DNA from: Candidatus Thalassarchaeaceae archaeon
GTDB taxonomy: Archaea > Thermoplasmatota > Poseidoniia > Poseidoniales > Thalassarchaeaceae
DNA: 25,149 nt
Direction: 5' to 3'
Assembly (NCBI GenBank): GCA_030747675.1
Contig: JASLKH010000007.1
Span: 1 to 25,149, forward strand
Shown: positions 9,982-14,384 of the stretch, one piece after another
How positions within the stretch are numbered: position 1 is the stretch's first letter
How the letters are laid out: every line of letters begins with the position of its first letter
Translations under genes and position numbers: made by a program
Notes under the pieces: model-generated
Databases searched by the model: none
What the model saw: the letters and a program-made list of their open reading frames with translations, nothing else
Told to the model about the DNA's origin: nothing

Positions 9982-10407
9982 TCAACAACACCCCTCTTCT
10001 CGCATAGGTGCAGCGATGAAAGACACTCGATCAATATCACGTGTATTTTTCAATTTTTCAAGCACGCTTCGGATTGATTTAGCAAGGCCAGTAATTTGCA
10101 TCGTATCGACACATGTGTGACTGTTTGTAAGGCAGTTATGATGGTATGATGATATTTTTAGTGCATGCGAGTGCCGTAGATCAATTAATTTGTTTTCGAT
10201 TCCATGTTGATAATAGATGACCATTGTCCCATCAACTTCAACATTGTCATCCATCGTAACAATATCTCCTCTCTGGGTGGCTTCAAAGAAATGGACACTG
10301 GCATCTCTGAGAAACATGCTTCGGTTTTTGTATCCTGATAGTTCAATCAACGAATCAAGTTGTGCTGCAAATTTTTTGTCTGTGCTGAATGAAAGTACAC
10401 GGCTCAT
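9982..10407 (-). CDS. NikR/CopG-family (ribbon-helix-helix plus ACT-like) metal-responsive transcription regulator
   Basis: N-terminal RHH (RVLSFSTD...LDSLIELSGYKNRSMFLRDA) and a NikR_C-like fold (GTMVIYYQH...RHSH...SSYHHNC...HTCVDTMQITG). Confidence 0.8.
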   Translation of the reverse strand: MSRVLSFSTDKKFAAQLDSLIELSGYKNRSMFLRDASVHFFEATQRGDIVTMDDNVEVDGTMVIYYQHGIENKLIDLRHSHALKISSYHHNCLTNSHTCVDTMQITGLAKSIRSVLEKLKNTRDIDRVSFIAAPMREEGCC

Positions 10408-10428
10408 GAGACAACCACAAAGTAAGAA

Positions 10429-10456
10429 TTAATAACATTTTTTAAATATGTATTAA
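10429..10456. promoter_or_regulatory. Candidate operator TTAATA-N16-TATTAA enclosing TATA box TTTAAATA (10441-10448)
   Basis: Perfect 6-bp arms with a 16-bp spacer. The TATA box is at -29..-22 from the ZIP ATG 10470. Confidence 0.55.
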
Positions 10457-10469
10457 CAAACGGCAATTC

Positions 10470-11618
10470 ATGACTGAAGCACCAATGCTCTATGCTGCCC
10501 TCACACTTTCAATTGCGCTAATATGCGGACTGCTCCCCATTTTTTCAAAAATAAAAGAGGATGTTAGCAAGTTGAAAATGCTAACTGGTGTTGCTGCTGG
10601 AATTATTATTGCATCTGCATTGTTAGTTGTCATACCGGAAGGTTACGAAATTGCTACAGAGGATGAGCACGATGAGCACGATGATGAAGCCTCAATAGCT
10701 GGTTCTATTGCATTAGTGATGCTTGAAGTCGATCACGGTGAAATAAACGCATCACAAGCGATAGAAGAAATCGAAGTGTTGGTTGGGGGTCATGATGATC
10801 ATGATGACCATGATGATCATGAGGATGAAGAATCACATGATGAAAATAATTCTGAAGAACCTCTTTCAGAGTCTGTGCTCCATGTAATTGAAGAAGTAGA
10901 AGAGGGAGAAATAACTGCCACTGAAGGTTTAGAGGAAATCGAGGAAATAATCACAGAGCATTCTCATGAAGAACATTCTCATGAAGAAGAAGAAGAACAT
11001 GAAGAGCATGCTAATGGGCTGATTTTAGGTGGTGCAATTCTTTGTGGATTTTTACTAATGCTAATCCTTGAGGGGTCAGGCATAGGTCATGCAGTACACG
11101 AAGAACATCACGATCATTCACATGACCACAATCATGGCCATGTTCATCACAGCTCACCAGGATGGTTACTAGTTCTCGGACTTACTCTACATTCAGCCAC
11201 AGATGGCTTAGCAATAGGGGCTGCGGCAGCATCAGGCAGTGCTGCTATAACTGCAACCATCGTTTTTGCAGTTTTAATCCACAAAGGACCGGCCGCTTTT
11301 AGCCTAGGAATATTTTCTATGCACGAGAGAGAAAAGCGCAACGATTCAATTAGAGATGTTGTGATATTTTCACTTGCGACCCCGGTTATGATGATGTTGG
11401 CATTTTTCCTCTTTGAAGATTTAGATAATTATCTAATTGGTTTAGCCATGTTATTCTCTGCAGGAACCTTCCTTTACATTGCAACAGTTGACACACTCCC
11501 TGATATTCACAATCCAGAGTCTGGGAAAAAGGCGATGTTTCATGTCCTTTTAGGAATCATTATTCTTACAATATTGCTTATGGTAGCAGATACATTAGAT
11601 TTAGGGCATCAGCATTGA
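10470..11618 (+). CDS. ZIP-family divalent metal transporter (ZIP9-like signatures) with His/acidic-rich loops
   Basis: TM4 LHSATDGLAIG, TM5 IHKGPAAFSLG, TM7 FSAGTFLYIATVDTLPD, and two His-rich loop regions. Confidence 0.92.
   Translation: MTEAPMLYAALTLSIALICGLLPIFSKIKEDVSKLKMLTGVAAGIIIASALLVVIPEGYEIATEDEHDEHDDEASIAGSIALVMLEVDHGEINASQAIEEIEVLVGGHDDHDDHDDHEDEESHDENNSEEPLSESVLHVIEEVEEGEITATEGLEEIEEIITEHSHEEHSHEEEEEHEEHANGLILGGAILCGFLLMLILEGSGIGHAVHEEHHDHSHDHNHGHVHHSSPGWLLVLGLTLHSATDGLAIGAAAASGSAAITATIVFAVLIHKGPAAFSLGIFSMHEREKRNDSIRDVVIFSLATPVMMMLAFFLFEDLDNYLIGLAMLFSAGTFLYIATVDTLPDIHNPESGKKAMFHVLLGIIILTILLMVADTLDLGHQH
10659..11009 (+). repeat. His/Asp/Glu codon repeats plus a duplicated 27-aa module inside the ZIP gene
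   Basis: GATGAGCAC tandem, (CATGATGAY)n and CATTCTCATGAAGAA x2. Modules at 10704-10784 and 10872-10952 share 12/27 aa. Confidence 0.75.
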
Positions 11619-11672: not shown

Positions 11673-14384
11673 ATGCGCACGGCAATTTGTGCAATTTTCT
11701 TAACGTTGCTTCTTGCAATATTACCTTTGAATTCAATTGATTATTCAGAAGTGCTATCCGATGAAATGGAATTGAGTTTGAGTGCGAGTAGTGATGTCCC
11801 ATCATCCTCAAATTTCACAACAGTGTTTGAATTAGATATTCCGGAAGATGGTAAGTTCAACAATGAAGATATTTTGTATTCCACAGATAATAGTGCAAAT
11901 ATCGATTTCACATTTGATCAAGTTGCTTATTATTTAGAATTACAAAGGCTAGGTGAAGACCGAATTTGGGTTTGGGTTTCATTTCCAGCCTTAACTACAG
12001 ACGCTAGTGAATTAGGTGTCCCGACCTTTGCATCAGGGGCAGAATTCAATCAATTACTGACAAATGTCCGCATCGAATCGAATCACCCGAACTTGACTAA
12101 CCTTGGAACAATTGATACAGGTGTGATTGAGTTCTGGGGAACTAATTATGCTGCTTCAAATGCACTTGCAGTCCCAAATGCCAACGGCTCAAGCTATGAC
12201 TTTGGTGATACATCAAATACGAATGAAGCCGGGTATGGAAGCATGCAAATACACGATTATGAATCGGGAGAGACTTTGTTTTCTTACAGTGCTTGGGGGT
12301 ATGCAAGTGGAGGCGGAAGTGACGATTTAGGAATTGGAAATAATCCTGATTCCGCTGGTAATCCAGATTGGACTTTTTCTGGTAGTGCAAAAGGCTATGA
12401 TTTGAGGACACTTTCAGTGATGGTCCACCCTGGCCCAATTCCTACAGAACTAATGTTCAGCATTGAATCACCAGATTCACATCAAATTGTTCAGAGGGAT
12501 GACTACAATTGGGGAACTTTTCCAGTTCATGGTTCAACTCTATACACTGCTGATTTAATTGAAGGGCGCTATACTCCATTGGATAATGGTACACCTTCTG
12601 AATGGAATTTTGTATCAACTCCAATTGGTTTCAATTTTTATGGTACATTGGATGTTCCAGTTGGTTGGCACCGGTTGGACCTTCGTTTCATTAATGATGG
12701 CGTTTTTGTTGATTCAATCATTATTGAACCAGTAGGTGTAGGTGAAGTATTCATAATATCAGGACAGTCAAATTCTGCGAACTTCGGTGAATACCCCCTC
12801 ACTCCAACAGATACACGTGTCAGTACTTGGGGGCCAGAAGGTTGGCGCTTTGGGCACGACCCTCAACCCGGGGCGACAGGTAACAGTGGATCTCCTTGGC
12901 CAGTGGTTGGTGATTTGTTGACCTCTAGATACGATGTCCCAGTGGGATTCTTGTCAGTGGGATATGGTGGAACGCAGGTAGATAGATGGGTACCAAGTGC
13001 CAATGACCTCTTTTACCGAATTACGGATGCACTTGATGCCGTTCAACCTAGTGGCGCACGAGCTATTCTTTGGCATCAAGGTGAGAGTAATGCAGGGGGA
13101 ACATCAACTGAAGATTATGCTGAAATGCTTTCTGCAGTAGTCCTTGGTAGTCGAAACCACATCGGAGATGAGATACCTTGGCTTGTTGCTAGAGTAGGTT
13201 TTACACCCTCAGCTAATCCAGTAAAATCAGGATGGATTGTTGAGGGGCAAAATACAGTTATTGATGCAGACCCATTGACCTATGCAGGCCCTTATACAGA
13301 TGATCTCAATGGTTCTGAATGGCGCTATGATTTGATACATTTCAATGAAGCAGGATTGCGTGAACATGCATCTCGATGGGATGCACGAATTGCTACAGCA
13401 ATGACTGACTTATTACACATAATTGAGGATACAGATGGTGATGGAATTTATGATGATGATGATCTCTGCCCTCAGACTCCAACTGGAATTGATATATTCA
13501 CAGATGGTTGCAGTGAAGAGCAGCGTGAACCTGGCAGTACAATAGATTCGGACGGTGATGGGATTATGGACAATTCTGATTATTGCGCCAATACAACCAC
13601 AGGACAATCAGTGTATGCTGATGGTTGTAGTGACCATCAGCGAGACGGTGATAATGATGGAATTTCGGATGCAGATGATCAATGTCCTGGATTTGATGAT
13701 GGTATAGATGCAGATAACGATGAAACTCCTGACGATTGTGATGACCTTTTGGATTCAGATGGAGATGGCGTTGCAGATACAGATGACTTATGTGCAGGTT
13801 TTGATGATACAATTGACGTTGATGCGGATCAGTATCCCGATGGTTGTGATTTCATTATTGACAGTGATTTTGATGATATTGCAGATGAAAATGATCAATG
13901 CCCTGGATTTGATGACTTTGCTGACATGGATTTGGATGGTATAGCGGATGGTTGTGATTCTTTAATTGATTCAGATGGAGATGGTCGTGCCGATTTTGCA
14001 GATTTATGTAATGGTCATGATGATTCAATAGATGAGGATCAAGATGACATCCCGGATGGATGTGATTCATATGTTGGGGCAGAAGGAAATGAAAAATCTG
14101 ATTCTGTTTTGATGCAAGGTGGATTGGCCTTGGCAGCGATAATGCTGGTGATTCTTCTTACAGTAATTTCACTTACTTTTTTGCGTAAAGGAAAATCAAG
14201 CAAAATAAGAAGGACACCCCCCAGTGATAACACTATTTTCTCAATTGAAACTGGCCCTGACCCTGCAATTGATGGTGTTTGGAATGAGGGTGATGAGTGG
14301 CTAGAACGCCCTGAAGGAAGTGGAATTTGGTATAAGCGAAATCAGGAAACAAGACGTTGGAATTTACACGAAACCAATGAGTGA
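11673..14384 (+). CDS. Cell-surface SASA/SGNH carbohydrate (sialate-type) O-acetylesterase with TSP3-repeat stalk, TM anchor and Trp-rich tail
   Basis: Signal peptide. SASA motifs ISGQSNS, GYGGT, WHQGESN and DLIHF. More than ten DxDxDG..D.C repeats. TM helix LALAAIMLVILLTVISLTFL followed by RKGK. Confidence 0.82.
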   Translation: MRTAICAIFLTLLLAILPLNSIDYSEVLSDEMELSLSASSDVPSSSNFTTVFELDIPEDGKFNNEDILYSTDNSANIDFTFDQVAYYLELQRLGEDRIWVWVSFPALTTDASELGVPTFASGAEFNQLLTNVRIESNHPNLTNLGTIDTGVIEFWGTNYAASNALAVPNANGSSYDFGDTSNTNEAGYGSMQIHDYESGETLFSYSAWGYASGGGSDDLGIGNNPDSAGNPDWTFSGSAKGYDLRTLSVMVHPGPIPTELMFSIESPDSHQIVQRDDYNWGTFPVHGSTLYTADLIEGRYTPLDNGTPSEWNFVSTPIGFNFYGTLDVPVGWHRLDLRFINDGVFVDSIIIEPVGVGEVFIISGQSNSANFGEYPLTPTDTRVSTWGPEGWRFGHDPQPGATGNSGSPWPVVGDLLTSRYDVPVGFLSVGYGGTQVDRWVPSANDLFYRITDALDAVQPSGARAILWHQGESNAGGTSTEDYAEMLSAVVLGSRNHIGDEIPWLVARVGFTPSANPVKSGWIVEGQNTVIDADPLTYAGPYTDDLNGSEWRYDLIHFNEAGLREHASRWDARIATAMTDLLHIIEDTDGDGIYDDDDLCPQTPTGIDIFTDGCSEEQREPGSTIDSDGDGIMDNSDYCANTTTGQSVYADGCSDHQRDGDNDGISDADDQCPGFDDGIDADNDETPDDCDDLLDSDGDGVADTDDLCAGFDDTIDVDADQYPDGCDFIIDSDFDDIADENDQCPGFDDFADMDLDGIADGCDSLIDSDGDGRADFADLCNGHDDSIDEDQDDIPDGCDSYVGAEGNEKSDSVLMQGGLALAAIMLVILLTVISLTFLRKGKSSKIRRTPPSDNTIFSIETGPDPAIDGVWNEGDEWLERPEGSGIWYKRNQETRRWNLHETNE
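13430..14070 (+). repeat. Tandem thrombospondin type 3-like Asp-rich repeats
   Basis: Recurrent DSDGDG..D..D.C.GFDD..D.D.D..PDGCD units. Confidence 0.8.

What the first reader, a model, noticed from the sequence alone, without database searches (positions are those of the whole stretch)
9982..11618. NikR-fold regulator with rewired metal site, divergent from a ZIP transporter, with a NikR-geometry operator over the TATA box
Seen: an RHH + NikR_C-like protein is transcribed divergently from a ZIP transporter across 62 bp, and that spacer holds TTAATA-N16-TATTAA wrapped around TTTAAATA. Established: E. coli NikR binds a 6-16-6 operator, uses H76/H87/H89/C95 for Ni, and usually controls Nik/ECF-type nickel uptake. 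Seen: here the HxH...C segment reads YHHNCLTNSHTC (HxH broken, an extra Cys, spacing altered) and the protein ends in GCC. Inference: this is a NikR paralog repurposed to sense another metal (Zn, Co, Fe or Mn) and repress ZIP uptake, which would be a compact archaeal metal-homeostasis system. The arms are AT-rich, so the palindrome could be chance.
Basis: partly seen in the sequence, partly recalled or inferred. Interest (0 to 1): 0.7.

Follow-up and report, generated by a model that had tools for sequence, protein, structure and literature searches.

The report
NikR-like repressor of archaeal zinc importers
Marine Group II archaea carry a relative of the nickel sensor NikR with one metal-binding histidine replaced by cysteine; it always sits beside a zinc-type importer gene whose TATA box is bracketed by a strictly conserved NikR-style operator, so it is probably a zinc sensor built on a scaffold so far known only for nickel.

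Summary
The 141-aa ORF (9982-10407, minus strand) is a NikR-family protein. It is divergent from a ZIP gene across 62 bp that hold TTAATA-N16-TATTAA around a TATA box.

The dyad alone is only marginal against chance (expected 0.08). Comparative data settle it:
- In 68 Poseidoniales loci, every one with enough upstream DNA pairs the regulator divergently with a ZIP or a ZnuA-type binding protein.
- 59 of 62 spacers carry exactly TAWTA-N2-TATWTAA-N7-TAWTA, 15-17 nt from the transporter start, between unconserved flanks.
- The motif occurs once per near-complete genome.
- In one genome it precedes a znuA that has no adjacent regulator.

The metal site is H79', H90, C92, C99. This is His2Cys2 instead of the NikR His3Cys, and it is invariant in 67 sequences, as is a C-terminal Gly-Cys-Cys.

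Zinc is the most likely effector. The ZnuA partner best matches the zinc proteins AdcA, AdcAII and Lmb, with a 3His+Glu site. Fur/Zur-family genes were found in few Poseidoniales genomes, and the regulator does not track Ni-SOD. Nickel is not excluded.

Prior art is one speculative sentence on Methanothermobacter. First readers of this scan noted the same gene pair in four other genomes. I rate it a new variant of a known kind, untested at the bench.

The parts
9982..10407 (-). NikR-family regulator, 141 aa: N-terminal ribbon-helix-helix plus ACT-like NikR_C domain. Candidate metal ligands are H79', H90, C92, C99. Further invariant residues are H68, H97, D101 and the C-terminal G139-C140-C141.
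   Evidence: Pfam NikR_C 33.6 bits. Best PDB sequence hit is P. horikoshii NikR 2bj1, E 2.9e-10 (3e-12 with a profile). AF2 pLDDT 81. Foldseek top hits are Hp, Ph and Ec NikR, TM 0.64-0.69. Invariant residues in 67 sequences.
10408..10469 (.). 62-bp divergent promoter-operator spacer.
   Evidence: Spacer length is 62-66 nt in 42 of 47 ZIP-type loci. The central 29 nt are conserved and the flanks are not.
10430..10434 (.). Operator half-site distal to ZIP (TAATA), at -40..-36 from the ZIP ATG. It lies at -23..-27 from the regulator ATG, inside TTATTAAT, so it also serves as the regulator gene's own TATA box.
   Evidence: Positions T23 A24 W25 T26 A27 of the block are invariant in 58-59 of 59 distinct spacers. 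The half-site is kept in the 87-94-nt spacers, where the regulator has a separate TATA-like element at -25/-28.
10442..10448 (+). TATA box of the ZIP gene (TTAAATA, the reverse complement of TATTTAA), at -28..-22 from the ATG. This spacing implies a leaderless or nearly leaderless mRNA.
   Evidence: TATWTAA is invariant in 57-59 of 59 spacers and sits at a fixed distance from the transporter ATG whatever the spacer length. The TSS was not mapped.
10451..10455 (.). Operator half-site proximal to ZIP (TATTA), at -19..-15 from the ZIP ATG, between the TATA box and the start.
   Evidence: T2 A3 W4 T5 A6 are invariant in 58-59 of 59 spacers. TAWTA is not a general upstream feature of this genome: 0-4 of 943 genes at any position.
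10470..11618 (+). ZIP-family metal importer, 382 aa, with two long His/Asp/Glu-rich loops. It is the only ZIP found in this 78%-complete genome.
   Evidence: Pfam Zip 112 bits. Single ZIP hit in the genome. BbZIP alignment.

Best explanation
The 141-aa protein is a divergent NikR-family repressor that senses a metal. By analogy with NikR it probably works as a tetramer with an RHH dimer at each end. When metal-loaded, it is proposed to bind two TAWTA half-sites 21 bp apart, centre to centre (TAWTA-N16-TAWTA). These half-sites bracket the TATA box of the divergent importer gene, so binding would keep TBP/TFB off the promoter and shut down uptake. In the compact 62-bp spacer the distal half-site is also the regulator's own TATA box, so the regulator would repress itself as well. 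The effector is most likely Zn(II), bound at a His2Cys2 site (H79' from the neighbouring subunit, H90, C92, C99), possibly helped by the invariant C-terminal Gly-Cys-Cys. On this reading the protein is the Poseidoniales functional counterpart of Zur, controlling a ZIP importer and, through a paralogue, a ZnuABC importer. Shown here: family and fold, the ligand substitution, synteny, operator conservation, position and uniqueness, and the zinc type of the ZnuA partner. Inferred: DNA binding, repression, tetramer formation, metal identity and any role for the GCC tail.
For: Fold and family.
Ligand map: H79 = Ph H78 / Ec H76'; H90 = Ph H89 / Ec H87; C92 = Ph H91 / Ec H89; C99 = Ph C97 / Ec C95, with a one-residue insertion. 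All are invariant in 67 sequences, together with G139-C140-C141.
Synteny: every one of 68 loci with enough upstream DNA has a divergent ZIP or ZnuA, as do most of six more divergent members. The family was found in 116 of 151 Poseidoniales species genomes and 20 of 22 genera.
Operator: the exact composite is present in 59 of 62 spacers, 15-17 nt from the transporter ATG whatever the spacer length. Only two sites score above 12 bits in the own 1.68-Mb genome, at the ZIP and ZnuA promoters. It occurs once per genome in five genomes that are 91-97% complete. In G061 it stands before a znuA with no adjacent regulator, and that regulator's own promoter carries TATTA-N16-TATTA.
Geometry and half-site match known NikR operators: Ec GTATGA-N16-TCATAC (PMC7055735) and Hp TRWYA-N15-TRWYA (PMC3177205). 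The Ser-x-Ser in the beta-strand is as in Hp and Ph NikR.
Zinc: the ZnuA partner's best PDB hits are the Zn proteins AdcA, AdcAII, Lmb/Lbp and YcdH, ahead of Mn/Fe binders, with His/His/His/Glu at the AdcA ligand positions. A znuB gene lies downstream. The partner switched between ZIP and ZnuA at least 4 times. Fur/Zur family was found in only 6 of 61 genomes and none in the own genus. A DtxR-family regulator is present that could cover Fe/Mn. No CbiM/NikM and no NicO above cut-off in 61 genomes. The regulator does not track Ni-SOD: both 13, regulator only 5, sodN only 4, neither 3.
Against: There is no experiment, so metal identity rests on the nature of the regulated transporters. All characterised NikRs sense nickel only (PMC11672702). 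Three of the four canonical ligand positions are kept, and from general coordination chemistry a planar His2Cys2 site would also suit Ni(II). Ni-SOD is present in 17 of 26 Poseidoniales genomes, yet no known Ni importer was found, so a ZIP or ZnuA-like system could in principle carry Ni. His-rich loops bind Ni as well as Zn. The ZIP has unusual residues at BbZIP metal-site positions, D208 to K and E211 to A. The distal arm coincides with the regulator's TATA box in the compact form, so part of its conservation there is a promoter constraint. In two high-GC genomes the arms are degenerate. The paralogue lies on a 4.8-kb contig of a MAG with 2.45% contamination and could be mis-binned. The TSS was not mapped.
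Confidence: 0.55

Rival explanations
1. It is still a nickel (or Ni/Co) sensor. A His2Cys2 planar site binds Ni(II), and the regulator represses a ZIP or ZnuA-like importer that supplies Ni to Ni-SOD in organisms lacking NikABCDE, NikMNQO and NiCoT.
For: The NikR family is known to sense Ni only (PMC11672702). Three of four ligand positions and the family-wide H68 and H97 are retained. Ni-SOD with SodX is present in 17 of 26 Poseidoniales genomes. CbiM was found in 0 of 61 and NicO in 0 of 61 above cut-off, so the Ni import route is unknown. The transporters carry His-rich loops.
Against: The ZnuA partner is closest to the Zn-specific AdcA, AdcAII and Lmb, with a 3His+Glu site. From my own knowledge, no cluster A-I binding protein is known to import Ni. 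Five high-quality genomes have the regulator without sodN and four have sodN without the regulator. No sodN was found in the own genome, which is 78% complete. The His-to-Cys change, the one-residue insertion and the GCC tail are invariant, which points to selection for a different site. NCBIfam NikR models score 26-45 bits against cut-offs of 83-175.
Confidence: 0.15
2. It senses another signal on the same scaffold. Candidates are Mn(II), Fe(II), Co(II) or Cu(I), or an Fe-S cluster or thiol redox state held by the four invariant cysteines (C92, C99, C140, C141). In that case ZIP and ZnuA-like systems would be broad-range divalent-metal importers.
For: ZIP and cluster A-I ABC systems include Mn and Fe importers; MntA, PsaA, MtsA and YfeA are also significant hits. 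There are four invariant Cys and four invariant His per subunit. The ZIP metal-site residues are atypical.
Against: Zn-binding proteins outrank Mn/Fe binders. The third ligand is His (Zn type), not the Glu of the Mn type (the ligand rule is from my own knowledge). A DtxR-family regulator, the usual archaeal Fe/Mn sensor, is present in the genome (PMC2770081). From general coordination chemistry, Cys-rich sites are poor for Mn(II).
Confidence: 0.15
3. The conserved AT-rich block is only a compact bidirectional core promoter (two TATA/BRE sets), not an operator. The regulator acts elsewhere or not at all on these genes.
For: The central TATWTAA and the distal arm lie at TATA distance (-22..-28) from the two ATGs. 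The flanks AAATGT and ATT next to the distal arm degrade when the regulator gene has its own separate TATA.
Against: The proximal arm lies between the TATA box and the start, and the distal arm lies upstream of the BRE position. Neither is a core-promoter element of the transporter, yet both are invariant. The distal arm is kept at exact spacing in long spacers and before a znuA with no adjacent regulator gene. Canonical TATA heptamers and TAWTA are rare upstream of 943 genes in this genome. The composite occurs only at these loci. The spacing and half-site match NikR operators (PMC7055735, PMC3177205).
Confidence: 0.07

Closest known systems
NikR (E. coli, H. pylori, P. horikoshii): Ni(II)-dependent ribbon-helix-helix repressor
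   Same: Same two-domain fold (RHH plus ACT-like metal-binding domain), with Foldseek TM 0.64-0.69. The ligand positions equivalent to Ec H76', H87 and C95 are kept. The operator is two half-sites separated by 16 bp, like Ec GTATGA-N16-TCATAC, and the TAWTA half-site falls within Hp TRWYA (PMC7055735, PMC3177205). It represses a metal importer encoded next door.
   Different: The second His of HxH (Ec H89) is an invariant Cys. There is a one-residue insertion before the last Cys and an invariant C-terminal Gly-Cys-Cys. Ec Glu30 of the K+ site is Met in 48 of 67 sequences. The protein scores far below the NCBIfam NikR cut-offs. Its partners are ZIP or ZnuABC, not NikABCDE or NikMNQO. The conserved Arg of the beta-strand is shifted by one residue relative to Ph and Hp NikR. 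The operator brackets an archaeal TATA box.
Zur (Fur family): bacterial Zn(II)-dependent repressor of znuABC and zinc-sparing genes
   Same: The proposed job is the same: a metal-loaded repressor of high-affinity Zn import that binds an AT-rich palindrome over the promoter (PMC6103462 abstract; PMC2490734 abstract).
   Different: The fold is unrelated: RHH/ACT here versus winged helix in Fur. The Fur family was found in only 6 of 61 Poseidoniales genomes. The regulon seen here is only the importer or importers plus the regulator itself; no COG0523 or ribosomal-protein paralogue sites were found.
Methanothermobacter NikR homologue next to znuABC (MTH603 / MTBMA_c09830)
   Same: An archaeal NikR homologue encoded beside a ZnuABC cluster. 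[quoted passage not shown]
   Different: That is a one-sentence conjecture with no site, ligand or comparative analysis. I could not fetch the sequence, so whether it shares the HxC and GCC signature is unknown.
ZntR of Methanosarcina (DtxR/MntR-like), predicted regulator of archaeal znuABC
   Same: A predicted archaeal repressor of zinc uptake (PMC2770081).
   Different: It belongs to a different protein family (DtxR). The own genome does have one DtxR-family gene, but no composite operator lies near it.

Membership tests
NikR family (Pfam NikR_C PF08753 plus RHH) | C-terminal ACT-like NikR_C domain | tested here: met
   33.6 bits against a gathering score of 22. The AF2 model matches NikR structures.
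NikR family (Pfam NikR_C PF08753 plus RHH) | N-terminal ribbon-helix-helix DNA-binding domain | tested here: met
   Foldseek alignments span 133-140 columns, including the N-terminal domain. Helices at 11-24 and 29-45. Pfam RHH_1 scores 15.8 bits, below its cut-off, in the window copy, but 26.6 bits, above it, in the paralogue.
Nickel-responsive NikR (NCBIfam equivalogs TIGR02793, NF003381, NF002815) | Score above the curated equivalog cut-off | tested here: not met
   26.5-44.8 bits against cut-offs of 83-175.
Nickel-responsive NikR | Square-planar His3Cys site (Ec H76', H87, H89, C95) | tested here: not met
   The Ec H89 / Ph H91 position is Cys92, invariant in 67 of 67 sequences. The other three positions are kept. 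Ligand identities are from PMC7055735 and PMC11672702.
Nickel-responsive NikR | Operator of two inverted half-sites about 16 bp apart in the promoter of the regulated importer | tested here: met
   TAWTA-N16-TAWTA is conserved in 59 of 62 spacers. Binding itself was not tested.
Nickel-responsive NikR | Controls nickel import genes (NikABCDE, NikMNQO, NixA/NiCoT) | tested here: not met
   Partners are ZIP or ZnuA-type. CbiM/NikM found in 0 of 61 genomes, and NicO in 0 of 61 above cut-off.
Nickel-responsive NikR | Ni(II)-dependent DNA binding; homotetramer | not testable with these tools
   Needs protein biochemistry. Only single-chain AF2 was available.
ZIP transporters (Pfam PF02535) | ZIP fold with the TM4 HNxxE/D and TM5 (H/Q)(D/N)xPE metal-site motifs | tested here: inconclusive
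   Pfam Zip scores 112 bits. The BbZIP alignment shows H177 kept as His, N178 as Ser, E181 as Asp, Q207 as His, D208 as Lys and E211 as Ala. Family membership is clear, but the second metal site is probably altered.
Zn-specific cluster A-I binding proteins (ZnuA/AdcA) | Three His ligands (plus Glu/Asp) and a His-rich loop | tested here: met
   Tested on the full-length orthologue P0271. Best PDB hits are AdcA (E 1.3e-32), AdcAII, Lmb and YcdH. His, His, His and Glu align with the AdcA ligand motifs. The His/Asp-rich insertion is very large. The own-genome copy is cut by the contig end.

The most novel reading that the evidence does not exclude
This would be the first NikR-family regulator with a non-nickel effector. 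A Zn(II)-sensing His2Cys2 NikR with a C-terminal Cys-Cys tail would serve as the zinc-uptake repressor of Marine Group II archaea. It would do so by clamping the TATA box of ZIP and ZnuABC promoters, and of its own gene, so that a single His-to-Cys change plus a tail retuned a 'nickel-only' allosteric scaffold.
Probability: 0.5. Interest if true: 0.75.

Novelty: new variant of a known kind. Interest (0 to 1): 0.62.

Why it matters
NikR is the textbook case of a metal sensor whose selectivity comes from coordination geometry. Recent reviews state that it senses nickel only and that it is the sole metal-regulated RHH protein (PMC11672702, PMC7055735). A natural, clade-wide variant with one ligand changed and wired to zinc-type importers would give a direct system for asking how metal selectivity evolves on a fixed allosteric scaffold. 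It would also fill a gap: little is established about how archaea regulate zinc uptake, and Fur/Zur homologues were found in few Poseidoniales genomes (PMC2770081). Poseidoniales are among the most abundant planktonic archaea, and zinc is scarce in surface seawater. A defined regulator, operator and target set would therefore give a usable marker for zinc stress in metatranscriptomes. The operator is short, sharply defined and brackets a TATA box, which makes it a clean model of archaeal repression by promoter occlusion.

Tried and rejected
- RNA evidence for transcription starts: only one metatranscriptome held about 5% of the sampled words. The laid contigs were low-complexity GAT-repeat matches plus one 159-nt contig inside ZIP (11167-11325). 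Nothing can be said about TSS or regulation.
- TAWTA-N16-TAWTA without the TATA box: 8 copies in the genome, not enriched over other spacings (2-7). The bare dyad is too weak to define a regulon.
- Looking for a wider regulon (COG0523 and similar): no further site above 12 bits in the own genome, and one site per genome in five others.
- NiFe-hydrogenase hits in 25 of 26 genomes cover only model positions 1-69 of about 380-aa ORFs. I read them as NuoD-like complex I subunits, not hydrogenases.
- Urease: none above cut-off.
- A third TAWTA in the long spacers is 22 bp from the distal arm in the 87-90-nt spacers but 28-31 bp away in the 93-94-nt ones. It tracks the regulator's ATG (-25/-28), so I read it as that gene's TATA box rather than a phased third half-site.
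- Other NikR-family proteins with HxC but no CC tail (P0185, P0186, P0203, P0207, P0260, P0267) are only 18-37% identical to one another and are not one subfamily. Their contexts were not examined.
- A general promoter profile of the genome from crude ORF starts gave only weak signals.
Full report
**Observation.** The window holds a 141-aa ORF on the minus strand (9982-10407) and a 382-aa ORF on the plus strand (10470-11618), separated by 62 bp. The spacer reads TTAATA (10429-10434), 16 nt, TATTAA (10451-10456), with TTTAAATA at 10441-10448. The protein contains YHHNCLTNSHTC and ends in GCC. As a bare pattern the dyad is weak evidence: with up to one mismatch it is expected 0.08 times in the window, and 8 of 100 shuffles produce one.

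**What the proteins are.**
- The small protein passes Pfam NikR_C (33.6 bits, cut-off 22) but falls far short of every NCBIfam NikR model (26-45 bits against cut-offs of 83-175).
- Its best solved relative is P. horikoshii NikR (E 2.9e-10, or 3e-12 with a family profile), followed by H. pylori and E. coli NikR.
- An AF2 model (pLDDT 81) has two N-terminal helices preceded by an unstructured strand segment, as expected for an RHH monomer, and a beta-alpha-beta-beta-alpha-beta domain. Foldseek returns NikR structures first, with TM 0.64-0.69.
- The neighbour is a ZIP transporter (112 bits) and the only ZIP found in this 78%-complete genome.

**Metal site.** The HMMER alignments to P. horikoshii and H. 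pylori NikR, combined with the published ligands (His76', His87, His89 and Cys95 in E. coli; PMC7055735), give this mapping:

| This protein | Ph NikR | Ec NikR |
|---|---|---|
| H79 | H78 | H76' |
| H90 | H89 | H87 |
| C92 | H91 | H89 |
| C99 | C97 | C95 |

There is one extra residue between C92 and C99.
- In 67 family members, H68, H79, H90, C92, H97, C99, D101, D126 and the terminal G139-C140-C141 are all invariant.
- H68 and H97 are also common in canonical NikRs, so they are not special to this family.
- The features special to this family are the His-to-Cys change, the insertion, the GCC tail, and Met in place of the Glu30 that helps bind K+ in E. coli NikR (48 of 67 sequences).
- A search of 1.84 billion representative proteins found only about ten clusters of this tight family. 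Most other hits have the canonical HxH...C.
- On a tree the family forms one clade (support 100) apart from five canonical NikRs.

**Synteny.**
- A scan of one genome per prokaryotic species returned 68 loci, all on Poseidoniales-type contigs.
- Every locus with enough upstream DNA has, divergently upstream of the regulator, either a ZIP orthologue (about 48 loci) or a ZnuA-type binding protein (about 16).
- The own genome has a second copy (57% identical, with the same ligands and tail) divergent from a ZnuA-type gene on a short contig.
- More divergent members (a 142-aa subgroup with HSSRLGHSCHSC and a CC end) are also paired with ZnuA, and a high-GC member is paired with ZIP.
- The family was found in 116 of 151 species genomes of the order and in 20 of 22 genera, mostly as a single copy.
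- On the tree the partner type is clustered, but well-supported branches require at least four switches between ZIP and ZnuA.

**Operator.**
- Aligned spacers show a sharply bounded conserved block: T-A-W-T-A, two variable bases, T-A-T-W-T-A-A, seven bases, T-A-W-T-A. Each named position is invariant in 57-59 of 59 distinct sequences, and the flanks have about zero information.
- The exact composite is present in 59 of 62 spacers. It always begins 15-17 nt from the transporter's ATG, whether the spacer is 62 or 94 nt long.
- This places the TATA heptamer at -22..-28 of the transporter (implying a leaderless or near-leaderless mRNA), one arm at -15..-19 and the other at -36..-40.
- In the compact spacers the distal arm lies at about -25 of the regulator's ATG and is flanked by extra conserved bases (AAATGT and ATT). 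In the long spacers these extras decay, and a separate ATTATTATTA element sits at -25/-28 of the regulator, yet the distal TAWTA stays at its exact spacing.
- I therefore read the two TAWTA arms as the operator, and the distal arm as doubling as the regulator's own TATA box only in the compact form.

**Specificity.**
- A 30-nt weight matrix finds only two sites above 12 bits in the 1.68-Mb genome, at the ZIP promoter (47 bits) and the ZnuA promoter (37 bits).
- In five genomes that are 91-97% complete, the composite (up to 1 mismatch) occurs exactly once each, against one hit in one genome for the reversed-pattern control. Each site lies at a regulator or transporter locus.
- In G061 the site precedes a znuA whose upstream neighbour is not the regulator. 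The regulator lies on another contig, and its own promoter carries TATTA-N16-TATTA.
- Canonical TATA heptamers and TAWTA are both rare upstream of 943 long ORFs in this genome, so the block is not a generic promoter.
- The geometry equals that of the E. coli NikR operator GTATGA-N16-TCATAC (PMC7055735). TAWTA is a subset of the H. pylori consensus TRWYA-N15-TRWYA (PMC3177205).
- The beta-strand carries Ser-x-Ser as in Hp and Ph NikR, although the conserved Arg is shifted by one residue.

**Which metal.**

*Evidence for zinc*
- A full-length ZnuA-type partner (P0271, 912 aa) is closest to the zinc-binding AdcA (E 1.3e-32), AdcAII, Lmb/Lbp and YcdH, ahead of Mn and Fe binders. It has His, His, His and Glu at the AdcA ligand motifs. 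A ZnuB-type permease gene lies downstream.
- ZIP plus ZnuABC is the classic zinc import pair, and the regulator has swapped between them repeatedly.
- The Fur family was found in only 6 of 61 genomes of the order and none in the own genus.
- A DtxR-family regulator, the usual archaeal Fe/Mn sensor, is present (PMC2770081).
- CbiM/NikM and NicO were not found in 61 genomes.

*Evidence that keeps nickel open*
- Ni-SOD with its SodX peptidase is present in 17 of 26 genomes, so many Poseidoniales need nickel and no known importer was found.
- The regulator nevertheless does not track Ni-SOD: both 13, regulator only 5, sodN only 4, neither 3. These genomes are related, so this is descriptive only.
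- From general coordination chemistry, a His2Cys2 set can bind either Zn (tetrahedral) or Ni (planar), so the ligand change alone does not decide the metal.

*My odds:* Zn about 0.55-0.6, Ni about 0.15, another signal about 0.15, no operator function below 0.1.

**Mechanism proposed.** When zinc is sufficient, the metal-loaded tetramer binds both arms on one face of the DNA, 21 bp apart, with its central domain over the TATA box. This excludes TBP/TFB and represses the importer. In the compact arrangement it also represses its own gene. When zinc is scarce, the apo-protein releases and both genes are transcribed. Only the sequence features are shown. Binding, repression and metal response are inferred from the NikR precedent.

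**Comparison with known work, and novelty.**
- Reviews state that NikR proteins sense nickel only, through a conserved square-planar His3Cys site, and that NikR is the only metal-regulated RHH protein (PMC11672702, PMC7055735).
[quoted passage not shown] No paper in the library links NikR with Poseidoniales.
- For archaeal zinc uptake, a DtxR-like ZntR has been predicted in Methanosarcina (PMC2770081).
- First readers of this scan noted the same gene pair in four other genomes. None of those notes had been followed up.
- I class this as a new variant of a known kind. It is a member of the NikR superfamily by fold. It is not a member of the nickel-responsive NikR equivalog, because the defining ligand set and the regulated genes both differ.

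**Limits.**
- There is no transcription-start or expression evidence.
- No multimer model was available.
- The paralogue lies on a 4.8-kb contig of a MAG.
- The arms are degenerate in two high-GC genomes.

Noticed in passing
L045:174-2912 (-) = P0271; own-genome copy L002:1972-2919 (+), cut by the contig end: The ZnuA-type binding protein is very large (912 aa). Its N- and C-lobes are split by an insertion of about 580 residues full of His/Asp/Glu repeats (HDEHGEED...), EF-hand pairs and a Cys-rich stretch, at the place where ordinary ZnuA has a short His-rich loop.
   Followed up: partly
window 10470-11618: The ZIP has two long acidic, His-rich loops with an internal repeat (GEINASQAIEEIE / GEITATEGLEEIE). 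It also has unusual residues at BbZIP metal-site positions: D208 is Lys and E211 is Ala. The second metal site of the binuclear centre may therefore be lost.
   Followed up: partly
L084:4883-5647; L085:4485-5212: Many Poseidoniales (17 of 26 sampled) encode Ni-SOD with its SodX peptidase, yet no CbiM/NikM or NiCoT importer was found in 61 genomes. How they acquire nickel is open.
   Followed up: partly
L090:1030-1422 (+), upstream of the znuA at 1541: In G061 the gene upstream of the operator-bearing znuA is a 130-aa protein built of repeated CxxC zinc-ribbon-like knuckles. The regulator gene lies on another contig.
   Followed up: no
L055 (CAXRJJ010000082.1): A contig deposited in a MAG labelled Yoonia sp. 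(Alphaproteobacteria) carries the Poseidoniales regulator-ZIP pair, nearly identical to L059. It is probably a mis-binned archaeal contig.
   Followed up: no
own genome, upstream regions of 943 long ORFs: Canonical TATA heptamers (TATWTAA, TTTAWAW) are very rare upstream of genes in this genome, whereas TTGAA/TTCAA words are enriched at -36..-22. The ZIP promoter is unusual in having a textbook TATA box.
   Followed up: partly
window 11673-14384 (+): A 903-aa secreted or membrane-anchored protein with a SASA (sialate O-acetylesterase-like) domain, followed by many Asp-rich DxDxDG-type repeats and a C-terminal transmembrane segment.
   Followed up: no
L094-L098: High-quality Poseidoniales genomes that lack the regulator have only short ZIPs (269-303 aa) without the His-rich loops, set in other gene contexts, and no ZnuA. 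The regulator therefore travels with the His-rich importers.
   Followed up: partly
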